From Novilysobacter viscosus (GTDB lineage Bacteria; Pseudomonadota; Gammaproteobacteria; Xanthomonadales; Xanthomonadaceae), in contig NZ_JBJMAV010000001.1 of assembly GCF_046600715.1 (NCBI RefSeq), positions 149,980 through 213,979 of the forward strand: a stretch of 64,000 bases of DNA, given 5' to 3'. How positions within the stretch are numbered: position 1 is the stretch's first letter; every line of letters begins with the position of its first letter. The notes beneath the pieces were generated by a model. The model was not told the origin of the DNA and searched no databases. It saw only the letters and a program-made list of their open reading frames with translations. The translations under genes and the position numbers were made by a program. Of this stretch, positions 30,993 through 36,310 are shown piece after piece.

Positions 30993-33008
30993 TCAGGCAC
31001 CTGCTTCGGGGGTCGCCGCTGCGGCGCGTTCGCCGGTTCCCGGCTGCGGAAGCGTTGCAGTCGCAGGTGTGACGGCGTTGACGCCGAGATAGCGACTCAG
31101 CAGGTCCTGCACGATCGGACTCTTGCCTGCCAGGCCTTCGACGGCCTTGCCCAGCGAGAGCGACTTGGAGAACGCTTCGAACAGGCCGCCGTCGCCGCCG
31201 ACCAGGTCGATGTTGGCATTGCGAAGGGCGGCGGCGATGACTTCCGCGTTCTCCTTGGCGACATCCTTGCCCGCGGAGATCGATGCCAGAGCCTGCTGGA
31301 GGTGGATGTCCAGCGACATGCGGAACTCCTCGTGGCTGCGCGCATCGACCGACAACGAGTCGATCGCCTCGAACTTGCGCGTCAAGCCTTCCGCTTCGGC
31401 CATGAGCTTCTTGACCGTCACGTTTGCCTCCGCGCCGCCGATGGCCTCGACCGAGGCGGCATTGGCGTGGCCGAGCTTGGTGGTGCCCTCGGCCTCGGCG
31501 GCCATGCGCTCGGCGAGGACGCGGGCATCGTTGGTGCCCTCCACCAGCCGCGCGGCAGCCTTGGCTTCGATCACGCGCGCCTCGGCGATACCGTGCTTCT
31601 CGATGGCCTGGGCCTCGGCTTCGCGGACCTGGACTTCGGCCAGTCCCGGGGCGGCCTGCTCGGCCTTGACGCCGTCGGCCAGCACCCGCTTGGCTTCGGC
31701 CTCGCGGTTGGCAGCTTCCAGTTCCGCCTGTGCAAGCGTGGTGCGTTCCACCGCCCGATGCTTGGCAGCGGTCTCCGCGGCCTCGGCTTCCTTGACCTTG
31801 TGGACCAGGGCTTCCTGCGCGGCGGCCTCGGCGGCCAGCACGCGGGCCTGCTTTTCGCGGTCGGCCTCGGACACCACGCGCACTTCGTTGATCCGCTCTT
31901 CCTCGATCGCGACGGTCTTGTCGATCGCGATGCGCTCGCGGGTGATGTTGGCTACGTCCTTCTTGCCGACCTCGACGACCTTGTCGCGCTCGACGGCCTG
32001 CAACTGGACCTCACGATCGGTGGTGACCTTCTCCAGCTCGCGGGCCCGGACCACGCGCTCTTCCTCGATCGCAACCGCGCGCTGGCGGTTCTGGCCGGCG
32101 ACTTCCACTTCGCGATTCACGTTCTGCTCGCGGATCTGGATCTTCTCGTCCGACTCGAGCCGGGCCTGCTCGGCGATCAGCCGCTGCTCTTCCCGCACGC
32201 GCGCGGTTTCGGCCTCCTCGCGCGCACGGATGGTCTCGATCTCGCGCTGCTGGCGGGCTTCCGCCTCCGCCTGCTGCCTTTCCAGCGCCAGGGTCGCCTC
32301 GCGTGCCTCGACGTTCTTCTTGGTGATCGCCAGCTTTTCGTTCTGCTCCAGCTCGTTGGTGACGACGTTCTGCGTCGCCGTGATCTGGGTGATCTTCTTG
32401 ATGCCCTCCGAATCCATGATGTTGTTCGGATCGAGGTCGGACTTCCGGGTCTGCTCGAGGTAGTCGATGGCGACGTCCTCCAGCACGTAGCCATTGAGGT
32501 CGTTGCCGATCACCTTGATGATCTCGTCGCGGAATTCCTGGCGCTTCTCGAACAGCTCGGTGAACTCGAACTTCTTGCCGACGGTCTTCAACGCCTCGGA
32601 GAACTTGGCGTTGAACAGCTCGTCCACGGCCGCCTTGTCGGATGCGCGTTCGGCACCGACGGCCTTGGCTACGCGCAGCACGTCCTGCTGGGTCTCGTTC
32701 ACCCGCAGGTAGAAGGCCACGGAGATGTCCGCGCGCATGTTGTCGCGGCAGATCAGGCCCTCGCGCCCACGGCGGTCGACCTGCAGCGTGATCAGGCTGA
32801 TCTGCATCAGCTCGGCCTTGTACAGCACCGGGATGATCAGGCCGCCGGTGAAGCGGACCTTCGGCGTCGCGCTCAGGTCGTTGACGATCAGTGCGGTGCC
32901 TTGCGGGACCTTGATGTAGAACGCCTTGAACAGGCCGAAGATGCCGAGCAACACGACGAGTAGAACGCCTGCGCCGACGACGAACGGCAGGATCATGGAC
33001 ATGGTCAT
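30993..33008 (-). CDS. flotillin / SPFH-domain protein (YqiK-like)
   Basis: N-terminal TM, SPFH core (PQGTALIVN...KVRFTGGLIIPVLYKAELMQISL), a LDPNNIMDSEGIKKITQ block matching E. coli YqiK, then a long EA-rich coiled coil. 671 aa. Confidence 0.85.
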   Translation of the reverse strand: MTMSMILPFVVGAGVLLVVLLGIFGLFKAFYIKVPQGTALIVNDLSATPKVRFTGGLIIPVLYKAELMQISLITLQVDRRGREGLICRDNMRADISVAFYLRVNETQQDVLRVAKAVGAERASDKAAVDELFNAKFSEALKTVGKKFEFTELFEKRQEFRDEIIKVIGNDLNGYVLEDVAIDYLEQTRKSDLDPNNIMDSEGIKKITQITATQNVVTNELEQNEKLAITKKNVEAREATLALERQQAEAEARQQREIETIRAREEAETARVREEQRLIAEQARLESDEKIQIREQNVNREVEVAGQNRQRAVAIEEERVVRARELEKVTTDREVQLQAVERDKVVEVGKKDVANITRERIAIDKTVAIEEERINEVRVVSEADREKQARVLAAEAAAQEALVHKVKEAEAAETAAKHRAVERTTLAQAELEAANREAEAKRVLADGVKAEQAAPGLAEVQVREAEAQAIEKHGIAEARVIEAKAAARLVEGTNDARVLAERMAAEAEGTTKLGHANAASVEAIGGAEANVTVKKLMAEAEGLTRKFEAIDSLSVDARSHEEFRMSLDIHLQQALASISAGKDVAKENAEVIAAALRNANIDLVGGDGGLFEAFSKSLSLGKAVEGLAGKSPIVQDLLSRYLGVNAVTPATATLPQPGTGERAAAATPEAGA

Positions 33009-33035
33009 TGCTACCTCTCCTTGGGATTCGAGCTC

Positions 33036-33671
33036 TTACAGGGTCTGGAACTGCCGTTCCGGTATCACGCGATAGGCATGCTGCGCATCGAGGTATTCGA
33101 TAAGCACGACGCGGTCGCCGCGTTTGAAGCGACCGGTCTCTCCGTCCCGCACCTGCAGCACCAGGCCCGCGCCGCCGTCGTCGACGGTGGCCGTGCCGTA
33201 GTCGGTGGCGACCTCCGGCGAGTTGACCACCGCCACGCGTCCCAGCAGCGACGGGTCAAGCGGTGGGCGCAGCTTGAGCAGCAACCGGCTCAGGGGGCGC
33301 AGCAGGACGGAGGTGAGCACGATGCCCGGGACCAGCATGGCCAGCGCGACGGCCGCGCCGGCGAACAGCCGCAGGCCCTCGCCCAGGTGGGCGAGTACGA
33401 GCAGGTGCACGAAATAGGTACCGATCCAACCCACGAACGCCAGCACGGTGGCCACCAGCATCAACGGGACACCTGACAGGCCGAGCCTTGAAATCATGGC
33501 GGCCGCGCCACTGGAGTCCGGGCTGTCGCCGTCGCCACCCAGCAGGCCGTCCAGTGCATCGATCTCGACCAGTCCGGTCGCTGCCAGGGCCCAGTAGATC
33601 GTGCAGACTGCCAGCACGACGCTGTAGGCGAGGGTGGGGAATGACAGTGCGGTTGTCAGGAACTCACTCAC
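33036..33671 (-). CDS. NfeD-like (YqiJ/DUF1449) membrane protein with C-terminal OB-fold
   Basis: Four TMs plus GRVAVVNSPEVATDYGTATVDDGGAGLVLQVRDGETGRFKRGDRVVLIEY, an NfeD beta-barrel. Canonical partner of flotillin. Confidence 0.75.
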   Translation of the reverse strand: MSEFLTTALSFPTLAYSVVLAVCTIYWALAATGLVEIDALDGLLGGDGDSPDSSGAAAMISRLGLSGVPLMLVATVLAFVGWIGTYFVHLLVLAHLGEGLRLFAGAAVALAMLVPGIVLTSVLLRPLSRLLLKLRPPLDPSLLGRVAVVNSPEVATDYGTATVDDGGAGLVLQVRDGETGRFKRGDRVVLIEYLDAQHAYRVIPERQFQTL

Positions 33672-34437
33672 GTGGGCTCTCCTTGCGGATGGTGGCGCGG
33701 CGCCGTTTCCGGGCCGGAGTCGCTTCCTTGCCTGCCGCGCCGGTCTCAGCGGCCTGGGCGGCCAGCCGGGTCAGCACGTTCTCGACGGCGGGGGGCGTGG
33801 CGGTGATTCCTGCTGCCTGGAGCTTCTCGTCGAGCGGATCGTGCGGGACGTTGCCGCTCGATGGCCGGGCCCGGGTCGGGGGGGTCGACTGGCGGGAACG
33901 CAGCAATTCCGCCGAATCGATCGCCGTCGGGATTCCGGTGCCGGTACCCGACGCGCCCCCTGCGAACGCCTTCTCCGCGCTGGCGACGGCCTCGGAGGCA
34001 CGCAGCAGGTCAAGCTCGTGCTTGAGGCGCCTGAGGGCGTTGTGTCCGTGCCGCACCATGGCATCCAGCTCGGAGGCCCGGTCCGCGTTGTCCGTGAGCA
34101 ATGCCTGTTCCGCATCGCGCTCGGATTCCAGCTCGACGATCGACAGGGCGACTTCGCGGGCAAGGGCTGGCTGGCCGGCCCGCAGCGCAGCCACCGCCTG
34201 GGCCTCGCGCTGCACGATCTTCTCCAGGGTCGCTTCGTGCCGTTCCTGCGCGGTGTAGCGCTGCGCTTTCAGTACGTCGAGTTCGCGCCGGAGCGTCTTG
34301 AGCTCCTCGTCCACGCGGTGGATGCGATCGTCCAGGGCACGTCCTGCATTCCACTCGCGGACTCCGCCGCGCACCGTGTCGCCGATATCGGCGATCTGTG
34401 CACCGAGGCGGGCCAGAAGGGTGTCGCGGCGCTTCAC
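33664..34437 (-). CDS. PspA/IM30 (Vipp1/YjfJ-like) family protein
   Basis: PspA-type coiled coil (LARLGAQIADIGDTVRGG...LKTLRRELDVLKAQRYTAQERHEATLEKIVQREAQAVAALRAG). 257 aa. Confidence 0.8.
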   Translation of the reverse strand: MKRRDTLLARLGAQIADIGDTVRGGVREWNAGRALDDRIHRVDEELKTLRRELDVLKAQRYTAQERHEATLEKIVQREAQAVAALRAGQPALAREVALSIVELESERDAEQALLTDNADRASELDAMVRHGHNALRRLKHELDLLRASEAVASAEKAFAGGASGTGTGIPTAIDSAELLRSRQSTPPTRARPSSGNVPHDPLDEKLQAAGITATPPAVENVLTRLAAQAAETGAAGKEATPARKRRRATIRKESPRE

Positions 34438-35093
34438 GATGCGCTTGCCTCGTCATGCGGCCACACCTCATCACGCAGGAAGGCCCCGTATGCATCGACA
34501 CATGCGATGACATTGCCCGCAAGTGCTTCGATCTCGAACAGGATGTCGGCCAGGGGGGAATGCGTGCCGAGCGATCCGAACATGACATAGCTCGGCACGC
34601 CGGCGACCGGCTCGATGCCCATCGTGGTCAGCGGCCACAGCTTGTGCGTGCGCAGGACGCGGGCATTGAAGGCGGCCGGATCGGACACGTGGTCGAGCGG
34701 CCACATCAACACCTGGACGACGATCTGCAGGCCGCCGACGGCGACGAAGACCGGAAGGTCACCGTAGTCGCGCATCACCAGGCGCAGCGTCGGGTCGGCA
34801 CCCTCGGAGCGGTGCACTTCGATGCTCCCGGATCCAACGGGGGTGGATCCTTCGATGGCGCGCTGCAGTGCGGCCAGCGTCCACCCCGGTTCGCCCGGAG
34901 TCTCGCGCAGGCAGTCGATCCCCGGGGCTTCGCCGGACGCGGGCGCCTGGCGAAAGCGTTGTTCGACAGCGGCCAGATCCTCCGAGAACTCGGGGCGGAT
35001 CCACACGTCCTTCTTGACGAGGCCGGCGTTGCGCATCCGCGCGCGGAACTCGCGTACGTAATCGGCGGACGAGCGTGGCTTCCCTGCTTTCAT
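34434..35093 (-). CDS. YjfI-like DUF2170 protein with an about 90-aa N-terminal extension
   Basis: C-terminal 130 aa, LPVFVAVGGLQIVVQVLMWPLDHVSDPAAFNARVLRTHKLWPLTTMGIEPVAGVPSYVMFGSLGTHSPLADILFEIEALAGNV, fits the YjfI family. First gene of the operon. Confidence 0.65.
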   Translation of the reverse strand: MKAGKPRSSADYVREFRARMRNAGLVKKDVWIRPEFSEDLAAVEQRFRQAPASGEAPGIDCLRETPGEPGWTLAALQRAIEGSTPVGSGSIEVHRSEGADPTLRLVMRDYGDLPVFVAVGGLQIVVQVLMWPLDHVSDPAAFNARVLRTHKLWPLTTMGIEPVAGVPSYVMFGSLGTHSPLADILFEIEALAGNVIACVDAYGAFLRDEVWPHDEASAS

Positions 35094-35117
35094 GTAAGCA
35101 TCCTAGTTTCTTACATG
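35091..35117 (-). promoter_or_regulatory. perfect 8-bp inverted repeat CATGTAAG-N11-CTTACATG overlapping the start codon / SD of the first operon gene
   Basis: Seen directly in the sequence. The mRNA would fold as CAUGUAAG-aaacuAGGAugc-CUUACAUG, with the SD in the loop and the AUG in the 3' arm. Lies in an AT-rich leader. Confidence 0.6.
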
Positions 35118-35142
35118 TAACTTTACAACCCGGCCACCTAGC

Positions 35143-35176
35143 GTGCCGACGAACGGTTCGTTCGCCCAATCGGCAC
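35143..35176. promoter_or_regulatory. nested palindrome GTGCCGAcgaacgGttcgttcgcccaaTCGGCAC in the operon leader
   Basis: 7-bp outer arms enclosing ACGAAC-g-GTTCGT. No T-run follows, so an operator is more likely than a terminator. Confidence 0.4.
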
Positions 35177-35215
35177 ATGGGCTCAGCCCCGGTCGTCCCC
35201 CGGCAGGCGCTTCTT

Positions 35216-36310
35216 CTAGAGCCCCCGCCATTCCCCGGTGGCAATGATCGCACGCAGCGCGGCGTCCGGGCCGGAGGCGTCCAGTCCGCGCTGTGCCAGC
35301 CACGCCCGGTCGTAGAGCGTTGCGTCGTAGCTTTCGCCCGGGTCGCACAGCAGGCTGACGATGCTGCCCTGCATGCCTGCCGTTCGCATGCGCGCTGCCA
35401 GTTGCAGGCATCCGACCAGGTTGGTGCCCGACGAGCCGCCATAACGCCGGCCAAGGTGTTCCTCCAACAAGTGCATGGCGGCGATGGAGGCGGTGTCGGG
35501 AACCTCGACCACGTCGTCGACCACGTCGAACAGGAAGCCCGGCTCCACGCGTGGTCGGCCGATGCCTTCGATCACCGTCGGCATGCTGCAGGTGGCATCG
35601 CGGTCGCGCTGGCGCCAGCCGTGGATGAACGCGCTGCCGGCGGGGTCGGCGACGCACAGGCCGGTCGGCAGGCTGCGGTAGCGCAGGTAGCGGCCGATGG
35701 TGGCCGAGGTTCCGCCGGTCCCCGCGCCGCAAACGATCCAGGCGGGCTCGGGGTGGGGTTCGCCGGCCAGCTGGCCGATGATCGATTCGGCGATGTTGTT
35801 GTTGCCGCGCCAGTCGGTGGCGCGTTCGGCCAGGCCGAACTGGTCGAGGTGGCAGGCCCCGTTGCGGGCATGCCAGTCGGCGCGCTCGTACACCTGCGCG
35901 GGGTCGTCGACCAGGTCGCAACGGCCCCCGAGCGCCTGCACGTCGGCGATCTTGCGCGGTGCGGTGCACGCCGGCATCACCGCGGTGAATTCCAGCCCGA
36001 GCAATCGCGCGAACCAGGCTTCCGAGATCGCGGTGCTGCCGGACGACGCGTCCACCACCGGCTGCCCACGCCGCAGGCGACCGTTGCACAGCGCATACAG
36101 GTACAGCGAGCGGGCGAGGCGGTGCTTGAGGCTGCCGGTGGGGTGGGCGGCTTCGTCCTTGAAGTAGAAGTCGATGCCGGGGAATCCCGGGAACCCGAGC
36201 TTCAGCAGGTGGGTGTCGGCCGATCGCGCGGCTTCCTGCCGCAGCCGGGCCAGCGACTGCCCGGTCCACTCGCGCATGTCCGCGACGGTCGGGGCAGGCG
36301 CGATGTTCAC
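35216..36310 (-). CDS. PLP-dependent cysteine-synthase-family (CysK/CBS/SbnA-like) enzyme
   Basis: PLP lysine motif PTGSLKHRLA, Gly-rich loop GAGTGGT, 364 aa. Confidence 0.75.
   Translation of the reverse strand: MNIAPAPTVADMREWTGQSLARLRQEAARSADTHLLKLGFPGFPGIDFYFKDEAAHPTGSLKHRLARSLYLYALCNGRLRRGQPVVDASSGSTAISEAWFARLLGLEFTAVMPACTAPRKIADVQALGGRCDLVDDPAQVYERADWHARNGACHLDQFGLAERATDWRGNNNIAESIIGQLAGEPHPEPAWIVCGAGTGGTSATIGRYLRYRSLPTGLCVADPAGSAFIHGWRQRDRDATCSMPTVIEGIGRPRVEPGFLFDVVDDVVEVPDTASIAAMHLLEEHLGRRYGGSSGTNLVGCLQLAARMRTAGMQGSIVSLLCDPGESYDATLYDRAWLAQRGLDASGPDAALRAIIATGEWRGL

What the first reader, a model, noticed from the sequence alone, without database searches (positions are those of the whole stretch)
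35085..35180. AT-rich leader with a start-codon-occluding hairpin and a nested palindrome
In a roughly 70 percent GC genome, the about 60 bp around the YjfI-like start are AT-rich. A perfect inverted repeat CATGTAAG-N11-CTTACATG (35091-35117) places the SD (AGGA) in the loop and the initiation AUG in the 3' arm. A second, nested palindrome GTGCCGA...ACGAAC-g-GTTCGT...TCGGCAC lies 25 bp further upstream. These look like a translational control hairpin (thermosensor-like or riboregulated) and/or an operator for a dedicated repressor of the stress operon.
Basis: seen in the sequence. Interest (0 to 1): 0.6.

Follow-up and report, generated by a model that had tools for sequence, protein, structure and literature searches.

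The report
Operator boxes on a leaderless promoter
The "hairpin" is two copies of a conserved 10-bp DNA box that sit on the promoter and start codon of a membrane-stress operon whose mRNA most likely begins at the AUG, so it looks like a repressor binding site rather than an RNA switch.

Summary
The sequence features are real. The gene lies on the minus strand. It is a yjfI/bacA-like gene that heads an operon with a PspA-like gene.

The inverted repeat is two copies of a palindromic box, TTWCATGWAA, at -27 and -4 from the ATG. Across 81 orthologous loci such boxes sit only at -4, -27, -50 and -73. They are about 870-fold enriched there.

A sigma-70-type promoter is conserved around the boxes: TTGACA, a 17-18 nt spacer, then TAnnnT ending 6-7 nt before the ATG.

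In the P. aeruginosa PA14 ortholog, published 5'-end mapping puts the transcription start on the A of this ATG. The mRNA is therefore most likely leaderless, and the 5' arm of the hairpin is not transcribed. The stem shows no compensatory changes.

Best reading: an operator overlapping the promoter. The likely binder is the unannotated, basic N-terminal domain of about 45 aa of the encoded protein itself. A published bacA transposon mutant over-produces the operon 6-13-fold.

The second palindrome contains a conserved core, ACCGTTCGTCGG, at about -65. Its function is unknown.

The parts
35088..35097 (-). Proximal box TTACATGAAA, at -4..+6 relative to the A of the ATG. It contains the start codon and codon 2 (AAA).
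   Evidence: Perfect TTWCATGWAA match. A box occupies -4 in 44 of 81 loci. The preceding TTWC is present in 32 of 33 class-I loci, and codon 2 is AAA in 35 of 35 Lys cases, against 27% AAA elsewhere in the same ORFs.
35111..35120 (-). Distal box TTACATGTAA, at -27..-18, a perfect 10-bp palindrome inside the promoter spacer.
   Evidence: a box lies at -26 to -28 in 78 of 81 loci. The strict pattern TYACATGTRA occurs only at these promoters in all fetched loci.
35100..35105 (-). -10 hexamer TAGGAT.
   Evidence: a TAnnnT hexamer ends 6-7 nt before the ATG in 77 of 81 loci. An SD core is not conserved.
35123..35128 (-). -35 hexamer TTGTAA, with a 17-nt spacer to the -10.
   Evidence: the -35 is mostly TTGACA in orthologs, with spacer 17 in 55 loci and 18 in 25.
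35091..35093 (-). ATG start codon. The predicted transcription start is at 35093, giving a leaderless mRNA.
   Evidence: Conserved promoter geometry. PA14 ortholog TSS 1374599 equals the A of the long-form ATG. The first nine or so nucleotides of the transcript are predicted unpaired.
35146..35157 (-). Conserved upstream motif ACCGTTCGTCGG, centred near -60. Function unknown; possibly a second protein-binding site.
   Evidence: Single match in the window. CCGTTCGTCGG with 0-2 mismatches lies at -63 to -66 in 23 loci, reversed in three Pseudomonas loci, with second copies near -123 in three loci.
35143..35176 (.). Only the core above is conserved.
   Evidence: As RNA it would fold at -18.7 kcal/mol, z -2.5. 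No T-tract follows and no terminator was called. The outer arms are not conserved in L. spongiicola.
34947..35093 (-). Codons 1-49 of the yjfI/bacA-like gene: a basic helix / extended segment / helix N-terminal domain, the candidate DNA-binding module.
   Evidence: Conserved and under coding constraint, with pairwise differences of 0.24/0.18/0.51 at codon positions 1/2/3. AF2 gives H9-22 and H34-49. Weak, sub-threshold PF11455 hits in 31 of 39 members.
34476..34883 (-). DUF2170 (YjfI/BacA, T3SS-chaperone-like) domain, residues 71-206.
   Evidence: PF09938, E 8.9e-40. PDB 8q8o, E 6e-33. Foldseek TM 0.95 to 8q8o.
30993..34437 (-). Rest of the operon: a PspA/IM30-like gene (33664-34437), a 211-aa membrane protein (33036-33671) and a 671-aa protein (30993-33008). 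The first two junctions overlap by 4 and 8 nt.
   Evidence: The same gene order is found in 72-77 of 80 loci, whereas the upstream neighbour is shared with only 1.

Best explanation
The inverted repeat is a DNA operator made of two palindromic boxes (TTWCATGWAA, 23 bp apart). The boxes lie on a sigma-70-type promoter whose transcript starts at the A of the ATG, so the mRNA is leaderless. One box fills the -35/-10 spacer and the other covers the start site and the first two codons, so a bound protein would exclude RNA polymerase and repress the operon (yjfI/bacA-like gene, PspA-like gene, membrane protein, 671-aa protein). The most likely binder is the product of the first gene itself. It would bind through its conserved, basic, unannotated N-terminal domain of about 45 residues, with the C-terminal DUF2170 (T3SS-chaperone-like) dimer serving as the partner- or signal-sensing part. 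Shown: the boxes, their fixed positions, the promoter geometry, the absence of an SD, the absence of stem covariation, and the TSS in one ortholog. Inferred: repression, the identity of the binder, and how stress relieves repression.
For: Boxes: 170 hits within 140 nt of the start in 81 loci, against 12 in 693 kb outside. They are quantised at -4, -27, -50 and -73, and the strict pattern occurs only at these promoters. Promoter: TTGACA, 17/18 nt, TAnnnT, then 6-7 nt to the ATG in 77 of 81 loci. SD core: 9 of 81 against 62 of 63 for a control gene. TSS: PA14 transcriptional unit 841 has TSS 1374599 and a 177-nt "5'UTR" to the short annotated start, which places it on the A of the 206-aa ORF's ATG. 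P. aeruginosa has the same layout. Binder: every box-bearing locus encodes the N-terminal domain. Two yjfI genes without the domain, E. coli and Pseudomonas sp. DG56-2, have an SD-led start and no boxes. A distant stand-alone homolog of the domain sits just upstream of a different DUF2170-PspA operon and is preceded by two TTACATGTAA boxes. The box variant tracks the protein subfamily. A PA14 bacA::MAR2xT7 mutant shows BacB-F raised 6-13.5-fold (PMC10948618). No other regulator gene is conserved nearby.
Against: No binding experiment exists. The N-terminal domain has no solved or confidently assigned DNA-binding fold: PF11455 scores 15-20 bits against a cut-off of 22, there is no PDB match, and AF2 confidence is moderate. 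The mutant evidence comes from a transposon insertion that could drive downstream genes by read-out. The TSS was measured in P. aeruginosa, not in this organism. The window's hexamers are weak, TTGTAA/TAGGAT at 8 of 12 matches, below the tool's default promoter threshold. The link between box variant and protein subfamily is confounded by phylogeny. AAA or GAA at codon 2 could also be selected for translation efficiency.
Confidence: 0.65

Rival explanations
1. An RNA hairpin in the 5' leader sequesters the SD and AUG and acts as a thermosensor or riboregulated translational switch.
For: If it were transcribed, the 8-bp stem would fold at -7.6 kcal/mol, z -2.9 in isolation. AGGA would lie in the loop and AUG in the 3' arm.
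Against: The 5' arm lies between the -35 and -10 of a conserved promoter, and the ortholog TSS is at the AUG. There are no compensatory changes. The SD is not conserved. Each arm is itself a palindrome. Class-II relatives keep their boxes at -50 and -27, upstream of the start site. In a 61-nt context the fold is unremarkable, z -1.0. No Rfam family matches. PA3732 mRNA goes down about 2-fold on heat shock.
Confidence: 0.05
2. The boxes are an operator, but for a trans-acting regulator encoded elsewhere. The N-terminal domain of the YjfI-like protein does something else, for example protein or RNA binding.
For: Conservation and placement of the boxes do not identify the binder. The N-terminal domain has no assigned DNA-binding fold.
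Against: Boxes and domain co-occur across Lysobacteraceae, Pseudomonas and other Gammaproteobacteria. They are also seen in one MAG labelled Rhodocyclaceae and in a split-gene locus with a different operon type. Boxes are absent where the domain is absent. In 700 kb of flanks and the 64-kb window, boxes occur nowhere else, which argues for a local regulator. The bacA mutant is derepressed.
Confidence: 0.2
3. The hairpin does form, but only on read-through transcripts from the upstream PLP-enzyme gene, where it hides the AUG and insulates the operon. This would be a side effect of the operator symmetry, not its reason for being.
For: The upstream gene is on the same strand and ends 122 nt away. 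No intrinsic terminator was detected. A leaderless start codon placed internally without an SD would be poorly used anyway.
Against: The upstream neighbour is not conserved while the boxes are. Many loci have a clear terminator upstream. Nothing tests this directly.
Confidence: 0.1

Closest known systems
P. aeruginosa bac operon (bacA/PA3732/PA14_16140 to bacF) and its proposed negative control by BacA (Wallart et al. 2024, PMC10948618; PDB 8q8o)
   Same: It is orthologous: 43% structural-alignment identity over DUF2170. The operon order is the same, as is the box / promoter / ATG layout. The BacA mutant over-produces the operon.
   Different: That work used the short 147-aa annotation (DUF2170 only) and proposed a sigma-54 promoter from sequence alone. 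It did not describe the N-terminal domain, the boxes or the leaderless start. No sigma-54-like match lies upstream on the coding strand. The window belongs to class I (boxes at -27 and -4) and P. aeruginosa to class II (boxes at -50 and -27).
Leaderless mRNAs of autoregulated repressors (lambda cI from PRM, Tn1721 tetR). This comparison rests on general knowledge, not on a test here.
   Same: A repressor gene whose transcript starts at the AUG, with its own operators overlapping the promoter.
   Different: The proteins and operators are unrelated. Here the start codon itself lies inside an operator box, and the repressor is fused to a chaperone-like domain at the head of a membrane-stress operon.
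Type II antitoxin-style autoregulation, and Pfam PF11455 (MazE-like, formerly DUF3018)
   Same: A small basic N-terminal module is the only consistent (weak) Pfam similarity. Palindromic operators overlap the promoter of its own operon. Stand-alone homologs of 45-70 aa occur in prophage-like contexts.
   Different: Scores are below the Pfam threshold. There is no toxin partner. The domain is fused to DUF2170.
E. coli Psp system (sigma-54 promoter, PspF activator held by PspA)
   Same: A PspA-family protein encoded in an operon whose expression is controlled by a dedicated regulator encoded alongside it.
   Different: The promoter here is sigma-70-type and the logic is repression at an operator, not enhancer-dependent activation. 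No bEBP or -24/-12 element was seen.
RNA thermometers and SD-occluding hairpins (ROSE, fourU)
   Same: The superficial geometry matches: AGGA in a loop and AUG in a stem.
   Different: The element is not in the transcript, shows no covariation and has no Rfam match.

Membership tests
Translational-control RNA hairpin / RNA thermometer | Both arms lie in the transcribed 5' UTR. | tested here: not met
   The 5' arm lies in the -35/-10 spacer. The ortholog TSS is at the A of the ATG.
Translational-control RNA hairpin / RNA thermometer | Base pairing is maintained by compensatory changes. | tested here: not met
   7 of 11 pairs are invariant. The variable positions break pairing. The covariation score is 0.025 against 0.016 shuffled, reached by 34 of 500 shuffles.
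Translational-control RNA hairpin / RNA thermometer | A functional SD is sequestered. | tested here: not met
   An SD core is found in 9 of 81 loci against 62 of 63 for a control gene. AGGA belongs to TAGGAT.
Leaderless mRNA | The TSS coincides with the start codon. | tested here: inconclusive
   Met experimentally for the PA14 ortholog. For this window it is inferred from identical geometry: the -10 ends 6 nt before the ATG. There is no direct data for this organism.
Leaderless mRNA | An AUG start codon and no SD. | tested here: met
   The start is ATG at 35093. An ATG could be assigned at the conserved N-terminus in all loci. SD is absent.
Repressor operator overlapping a sigma-70 promoter | Symmetric sites are conserved in sequence and overlap -35, -10 or +1. 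| tested here: met
Repressor operator overlapping a sigma-70 promoter | Specific protein binding, with derepression when the binder or the site is removed. | not testable with these tools
   There is only indirect support: the bacA::Tn mutant has the operon up 6-13.5-fold, with the caveat of transposon read-out.
Pfam PF11455 MazE-like antitoxin | Score at or above the gathering threshold (22 bits). | tested here: not met
   15.1-15.6 bits for the window protein. The best E-value among 39 members is 7.8e-4, and 31 of 39 hit weakly.
Pfam PF11455 MazE-like antitoxin | Paired with a toxin gene. | tested here: not met
   The downstream genes are PspA-like, a membrane protein and a 671-aa protein.
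YjfI / DUF2170 / BacA family | PF09938 domain with a T3SS-chaperone-like fold, first gene of a PspA-containing operon. | tested here: met
   136 bits against a cut-off of 27. 8q8o E 6e-33. TM 0.95. Operon conserved.
Sigma-54 / PspF-type psp promoter | A -24 GG / -12 GC element upstream of the first gene. | tested here: not met
   There is no coding-strand match with up to 3 mismatches in the 300 nt upstream of P. aeruginosa bacA. The conserved hexamers are sigma-70-like. The window itself was only inspected by eye.

The most novel reading that the evidence does not exclude
A previously unrecognised small DNA-binding domain (helix / extended segment / helix, about 45 aa) also occurs as stand-alone phage and mobile-element proteins. 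Fused to a T3SS-chaperone-like sensor domain, it forms a leaderless autorepressor whose own start codon lies inside its operator. Arrays of boxes at a strict 23-bp period would let chaperone-domain dimers bridge neighbouring boxes. Capture of the chaperone domain by the PspA-like or membrane partners under envelope stress would release the DNA. This would be a sigma-70, repression-based counterpart of the PspA-PspF partner switch.
Probability: 0.3. Interest if true: 0.7.

Novelty: new variant of a known kind. Interest (0 to 1): 0.55.

Why it matters
It replaces an attractive but wrong RNA-switch reading with a testable DNA-level mechanism. It also bears on a studied P. aeruginosa locus, the biofilm and virulence bac operon. 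There the annotated gene start, the "177-nt 5' UTR" and the proposed sigma-54 promoter all appear to need revision. BacA's reported negative control of the operon gains a concrete candidate mechanism: an N-terminal DNA-binding domain plus ACATGT boxes on a leaderless promoter. Finally, it defines a compact, portable operator/repressor pair conserved across Lysobacteraceae, Pseudomonas and other Gammaproteobacteria, and it gives a function hypothesis for a family of tiny stand-alone proteins.

Tried and rejected
Several approaches gave nothing useful or were set aside.

- Rfam scan of 34800-35500 at E<=10 returned only chance hits.
- The generic promoter/terminator scan found nothing, because the window's hexamers score 8 of 12, below its threshold.
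- Folding alone is ambiguous: z -1.0 in context against -2.9 in isolation.
- I considered a sigma-54 or ECF promoter around the CCGTTCGTCGG motif. No conserved -35 or -24 partner lies upstream of it and there is no sigma-54 match.
- I tried to treat the GC-rich palindrome as a terminator of the upstream gene. It has no T-tract and no call, and its outer arms are not conserved.
- Structure of the N-terminal domain: the monomer model is two helices with no PDB match, and the profile search against PDB sequences gave only noise. A dimer or DNA complex could not be modelled with these tools.
- Alignment A4 contained two N-terminal sequences whose tails I had typed from assumption. It was discarded and rebuilt from real translations and was not used for any result.
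- Brencic & Lory 2009 (RsmA and PA3732) and a second P. aeruginosa TSS data set could not be read.

Full report
**What is there.** The finding sits in the 122-nt gap between two minus-strand genes. Upstream is a PLP-dependent enzyme gene, 35216-36310. Downstream is a 219-aa ORF, 34434-35093. The ORF carries DUF2170/YjfI (PF09938, E 8.9e-40, residues 71-206). It is followed by a PspA/IM30-like gene, a 211-aa membrane protein and a 671-aa protein, and the first two junctions overlap. Database hits place the window in Lysobacter sp. A3-1-A15 / Novilysobacter.

- the perfect repeat CATGTAAG-N11-CTTACATG at 35091-35117, extendable to 11-nt arms;
- the GC-rich nested palindrome at 35143-35176;
- an AT-rich island, which is the lowest-GC 60-mer of the whole window at 0.43 against 0.69.

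Perfect 8-bp inverted repeats are not rare here in themselves, 60 observed against about 54 in shuffles. This is the only AT-rich one.

**The start codon.** RefSeq-type annotation starts the protein at Met20 (P0001, 200 aa). Homologs of 205-220 aa conserve the N-terminus from Met1-Lys2 onward, with invariant R21, G24, K27, W31 and P34. The block is under coding constraint. Mean pairwise differences are 0.24, 0.18 and 0.51 at codon positions 1, 2 and 3, and half of the differing codons are synonymous. The ATG at 35093 is therefore the start.

**Comparative anatomy.** I fetched 80 orthologous loci. They come from Lysobacteraceae, Pseudomonas and other Gammaproteobacteria, plus one MAG labelled Rhodocyclaceae. 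I aligned them on the start codon. Two things are conserved in otherwise divergent upstream DNA.

The first is a 10-bp palindromic box, T[TC][AT]CATG[AT][AG]A. It occurs 170 times within 140 nt of the start in 81 loci, against 12 times in 693 kb elsewhere. That is about 870-fold enrichment. The positions are quantised at -4, -27, -50 and -73, a 23-bp period. The strict form TYACATGTRA occurs nowhere else in any fetched locus. The window's two copies are its only perfect matches in 64 kb. Because each box is itself a palindrome, the pair reads as both a direct and an inverted repeat.

The second is a sigma-70-type promoter wrapped around the boxes. The -35 is mostly TTGACA and the spacer is 17-18 nt and contains the -27 box. 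A TAnnnT -10 ends 6-7 nt before the A of the ATG in 77 of 81 loci. The search range for that distance was 4-10 nt. In the window the elements are TTGTAA (35123-35128), a 17-nt spacer, TAGGAT (35100-35105), then 6 nt to the ATG.

A 4-nt SD core is present upstream of this start in only 9 of 81 loci. In those loci it is a by-product of -10 variants. For the 671-aa gene of the same operons the figure is 62 of 63.

**Experimental anchor.** The P. aeruginosa ortholog is bacA (PA3732 / PA14_16140). Its full ORF is 206 aa (P0123). Its upstream region reads TTACATGTGA-gctg-TTGAAA-tc-TTACATGTGA-tctcg-TAGTGT-gagtcc-ATG. Wurtzel et al. 2012, Table S3, lists transcriptional unit 841 with TSS 1374599, annotated start 1374776 and a 5' UTR of 177 nt. 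The annotated start is the internal Met60, and Met1 lies exactly 59 codons, or 177 nt, upstream. The flanking distances in my locus match the PA14 coordinates: 482 nt to the upstream gene and 1154 nt to the end of the next gene. The mapped TSS is therefore the A of the long-form ATG, and the mRNA is leaderless. By the same geometry the window's transcript should start at 35093. The 5' arm of the proposed hairpin would then not be transcribed.

**Test of the RNA reading.** I aligned 38 promoters that carry both the -27 and -4 boxes. Of the 11 stem pairs, 7 never vary and the variable positions break pairing rather than compensate. The paired fraction (87.3%) and the covariation score (0.025) are not above column shuffles. 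In class-II relatives the well-formed boxes are at -50 and -27, and sometimes -73, which is upstream of the start site. Rfam gives nothing. In isolation the hairpin would be -7.6 kcal/mol (z -2.9), but in context the fold is unremarkable. The RNA-switch reading is therefore rejected for the primary transcript. It could matter only on read-through from the upstream gene.

**Who binds the boxes.** The boxes cover the spacer and the start site in class I, or the -35 edge and the spacer in class II. Those are the positions of a repressor. The only conserved local candidate is the first gene's own N-terminal domain.
- It is basic, with invariant or nearly invariant R14, R17, R19, R21, K27 and K28. 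It is predicted as helix 9-22, an extended segment, then helix 34-49. A disordered linker joins it to a DUF2170 domain that matches the BacA crystal structure 8q8o and T3SS chaperones/YbjN.
- Its only consistent family similarity is weak and sub-threshold, to PF11455 "MazE-like" (31 of 39 members).
- A profile search finds just 196 representatives at E<=1e-3 among 1.84 billion proteins. They include stand-alone proteins of 45-70 aa, some in Mu-like prophage or small-gene clusters.

The association evidence is as follows:
- Every box-bearing locus has the domain.
- Two yjfI genes that lack the domain have ordinary SD-led starts and no boxes. These are E. coli K-12 and Pseudomonas sp. DG56-2.
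- In a metagenomic contig, a distant stand-alone homolog lies directly upstream of a different DUF2170-PspA-GSP-synthetase operon. It is preceded by two TTACATGTAA boxes.
- Box variants track protein subfamilies, although phylogeny confounds this.
- Wallart et al. 2024 found BacB-F raised 6-13.5-fold in a bacA::MAR2xT7 mutant and inferred negative control. They worked with the short DUF2170-only protein and proposed a sigma-54 promoter from sequence. I find no sigma-54-like match on the coding strand upstream. Read-out from the transposon is a caveat.

**The start codon inside the operator.** In class I the -4 box is TT[AT]C-ATG-A[AC]A. The untranslated TTWC is kept in 32 of 33 loci. Lys codon 2 is AAA in 35 of 35 cases, against 27% AAA elsewhere in the same ORFs. 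Glu codon 2 is GAA in 34 of 34, against 36%. This fits DNA-level selection for the box. Selection for A-rich early codons in translation initiation is an alternative explanation.

**The second palindrome.** Its core ACCGTTCGTCGG (35146-35157) is the only such match in the window. The motif recurs at -63 to -66 in 23 loci with up to 2 mismatches. It is reversed in three Pseudomonas loci, and a second copy lies near -123 in three loci. Nothing else is conserved upstream of it, and in several loci it lies just downstream of the terminator of an unrelated gene. Centred near -60, it is a plausible second protein site, at a position typical of class-I activators, but I could not identify a binder.

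**Verdict.** The RNA interpretation is refuted, and the operator alternative is supported and extended. The most likely mechanism is autorepression of a leaderless, sigma-70-driven membrane-stress operon. The repressor's N-terminal domain would bind periodic ACATGT boxes, and relief would presumably come through the chaperone-like domain. Confidence is high for the cis-architecture, good for leaderless transcription, and moderate for the identity of the binder.

Noticed in passing
window 35034-35093 (minus strand); L082 1501-1680: Public annotations start this gene too late. The window's protein is annotated from Met20 (P0001, 200 aa). P. aeruginosa PA14_16140/PA3732 is annotated from Met60 (147 aa), which turns the N-terminal domain into a "177-nt 5' UTR". 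The crystal structure 8q8o and the functional work used the short form.
   Followed up: yes
L082 1655-1680 (P. aeruginosa): Just upstream of the internal Met60 lies a GGA-rich stretch, GGAGAAGGAGGAAGAC-ATG, inside the linker-coding region. PA3732 is cited as a direct RsmA target with several sites "around the SD". These sites would lie inside the long ORF. An internal start producing a DUF2170-only isoform is conceivable. The window has no Met in its linker.
   Followed up: partly
window 35146-35157 and L001-L080 at about -65: The conserved motif ACCGTTCGTCGG(AA) lies upstream of the -35 in about 27 loci. Sometimes there is a second copy near -123, and it is reversed in three Pseudomonas loci. 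No binder was identified, and the motif is absent from P. aeruginosa.
   Followed up: partly
L085/L086 2501-2677; L088 2501-2713; L089 2501-2665: Stand-alone homologs of the N-terminal domain, 54-70 aa, sit in Mu-like prophage or small-gene clusters. This suggests a wider family of tiny, uncharacterised and possibly DNA-binding proteins on mobile elements.
   Followed up: partly
L087 2456-3122: This is a split arrangement. A 60-aa stand-alone domain gene lies about 120 nt upstream of a DUF2170 gene in a PspA-GSP-synthetase-type operon. Two TTACATGTAA boxes 14 bp apart precede it, and here there is a leader. The contig has low coverage (3x), so a frameshifted fusion cannot be excluded.
   Followed up: partly
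window 34434-34437 and 33664-33671: The stop and start codons of the first three operon genes overlap, by 4 nt and 8 nt. This suggests translational coupling downstream of the leaderless first gene.
   Followed up: no
window 30993-33008: The 671-aa fourth gene gave no Pfam hit at E<=0.01. By position it corresponds to the band-7/flotillin gene of the operon class described by Ravi et al. 2024. It is the most conserved protein of the operon, at 58-94% identity across loci.
   Followed up: no
L027, L030-L032, L037, L042, L055, L062: Some class-II promoters carry three boxes at -73, -50 and -27, plus a degenerate TTCCATGGAA at -4. That makes up to four sites at a strict 23-bp period, which hints at cooperative or bridging binding.
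   Followed up: partly
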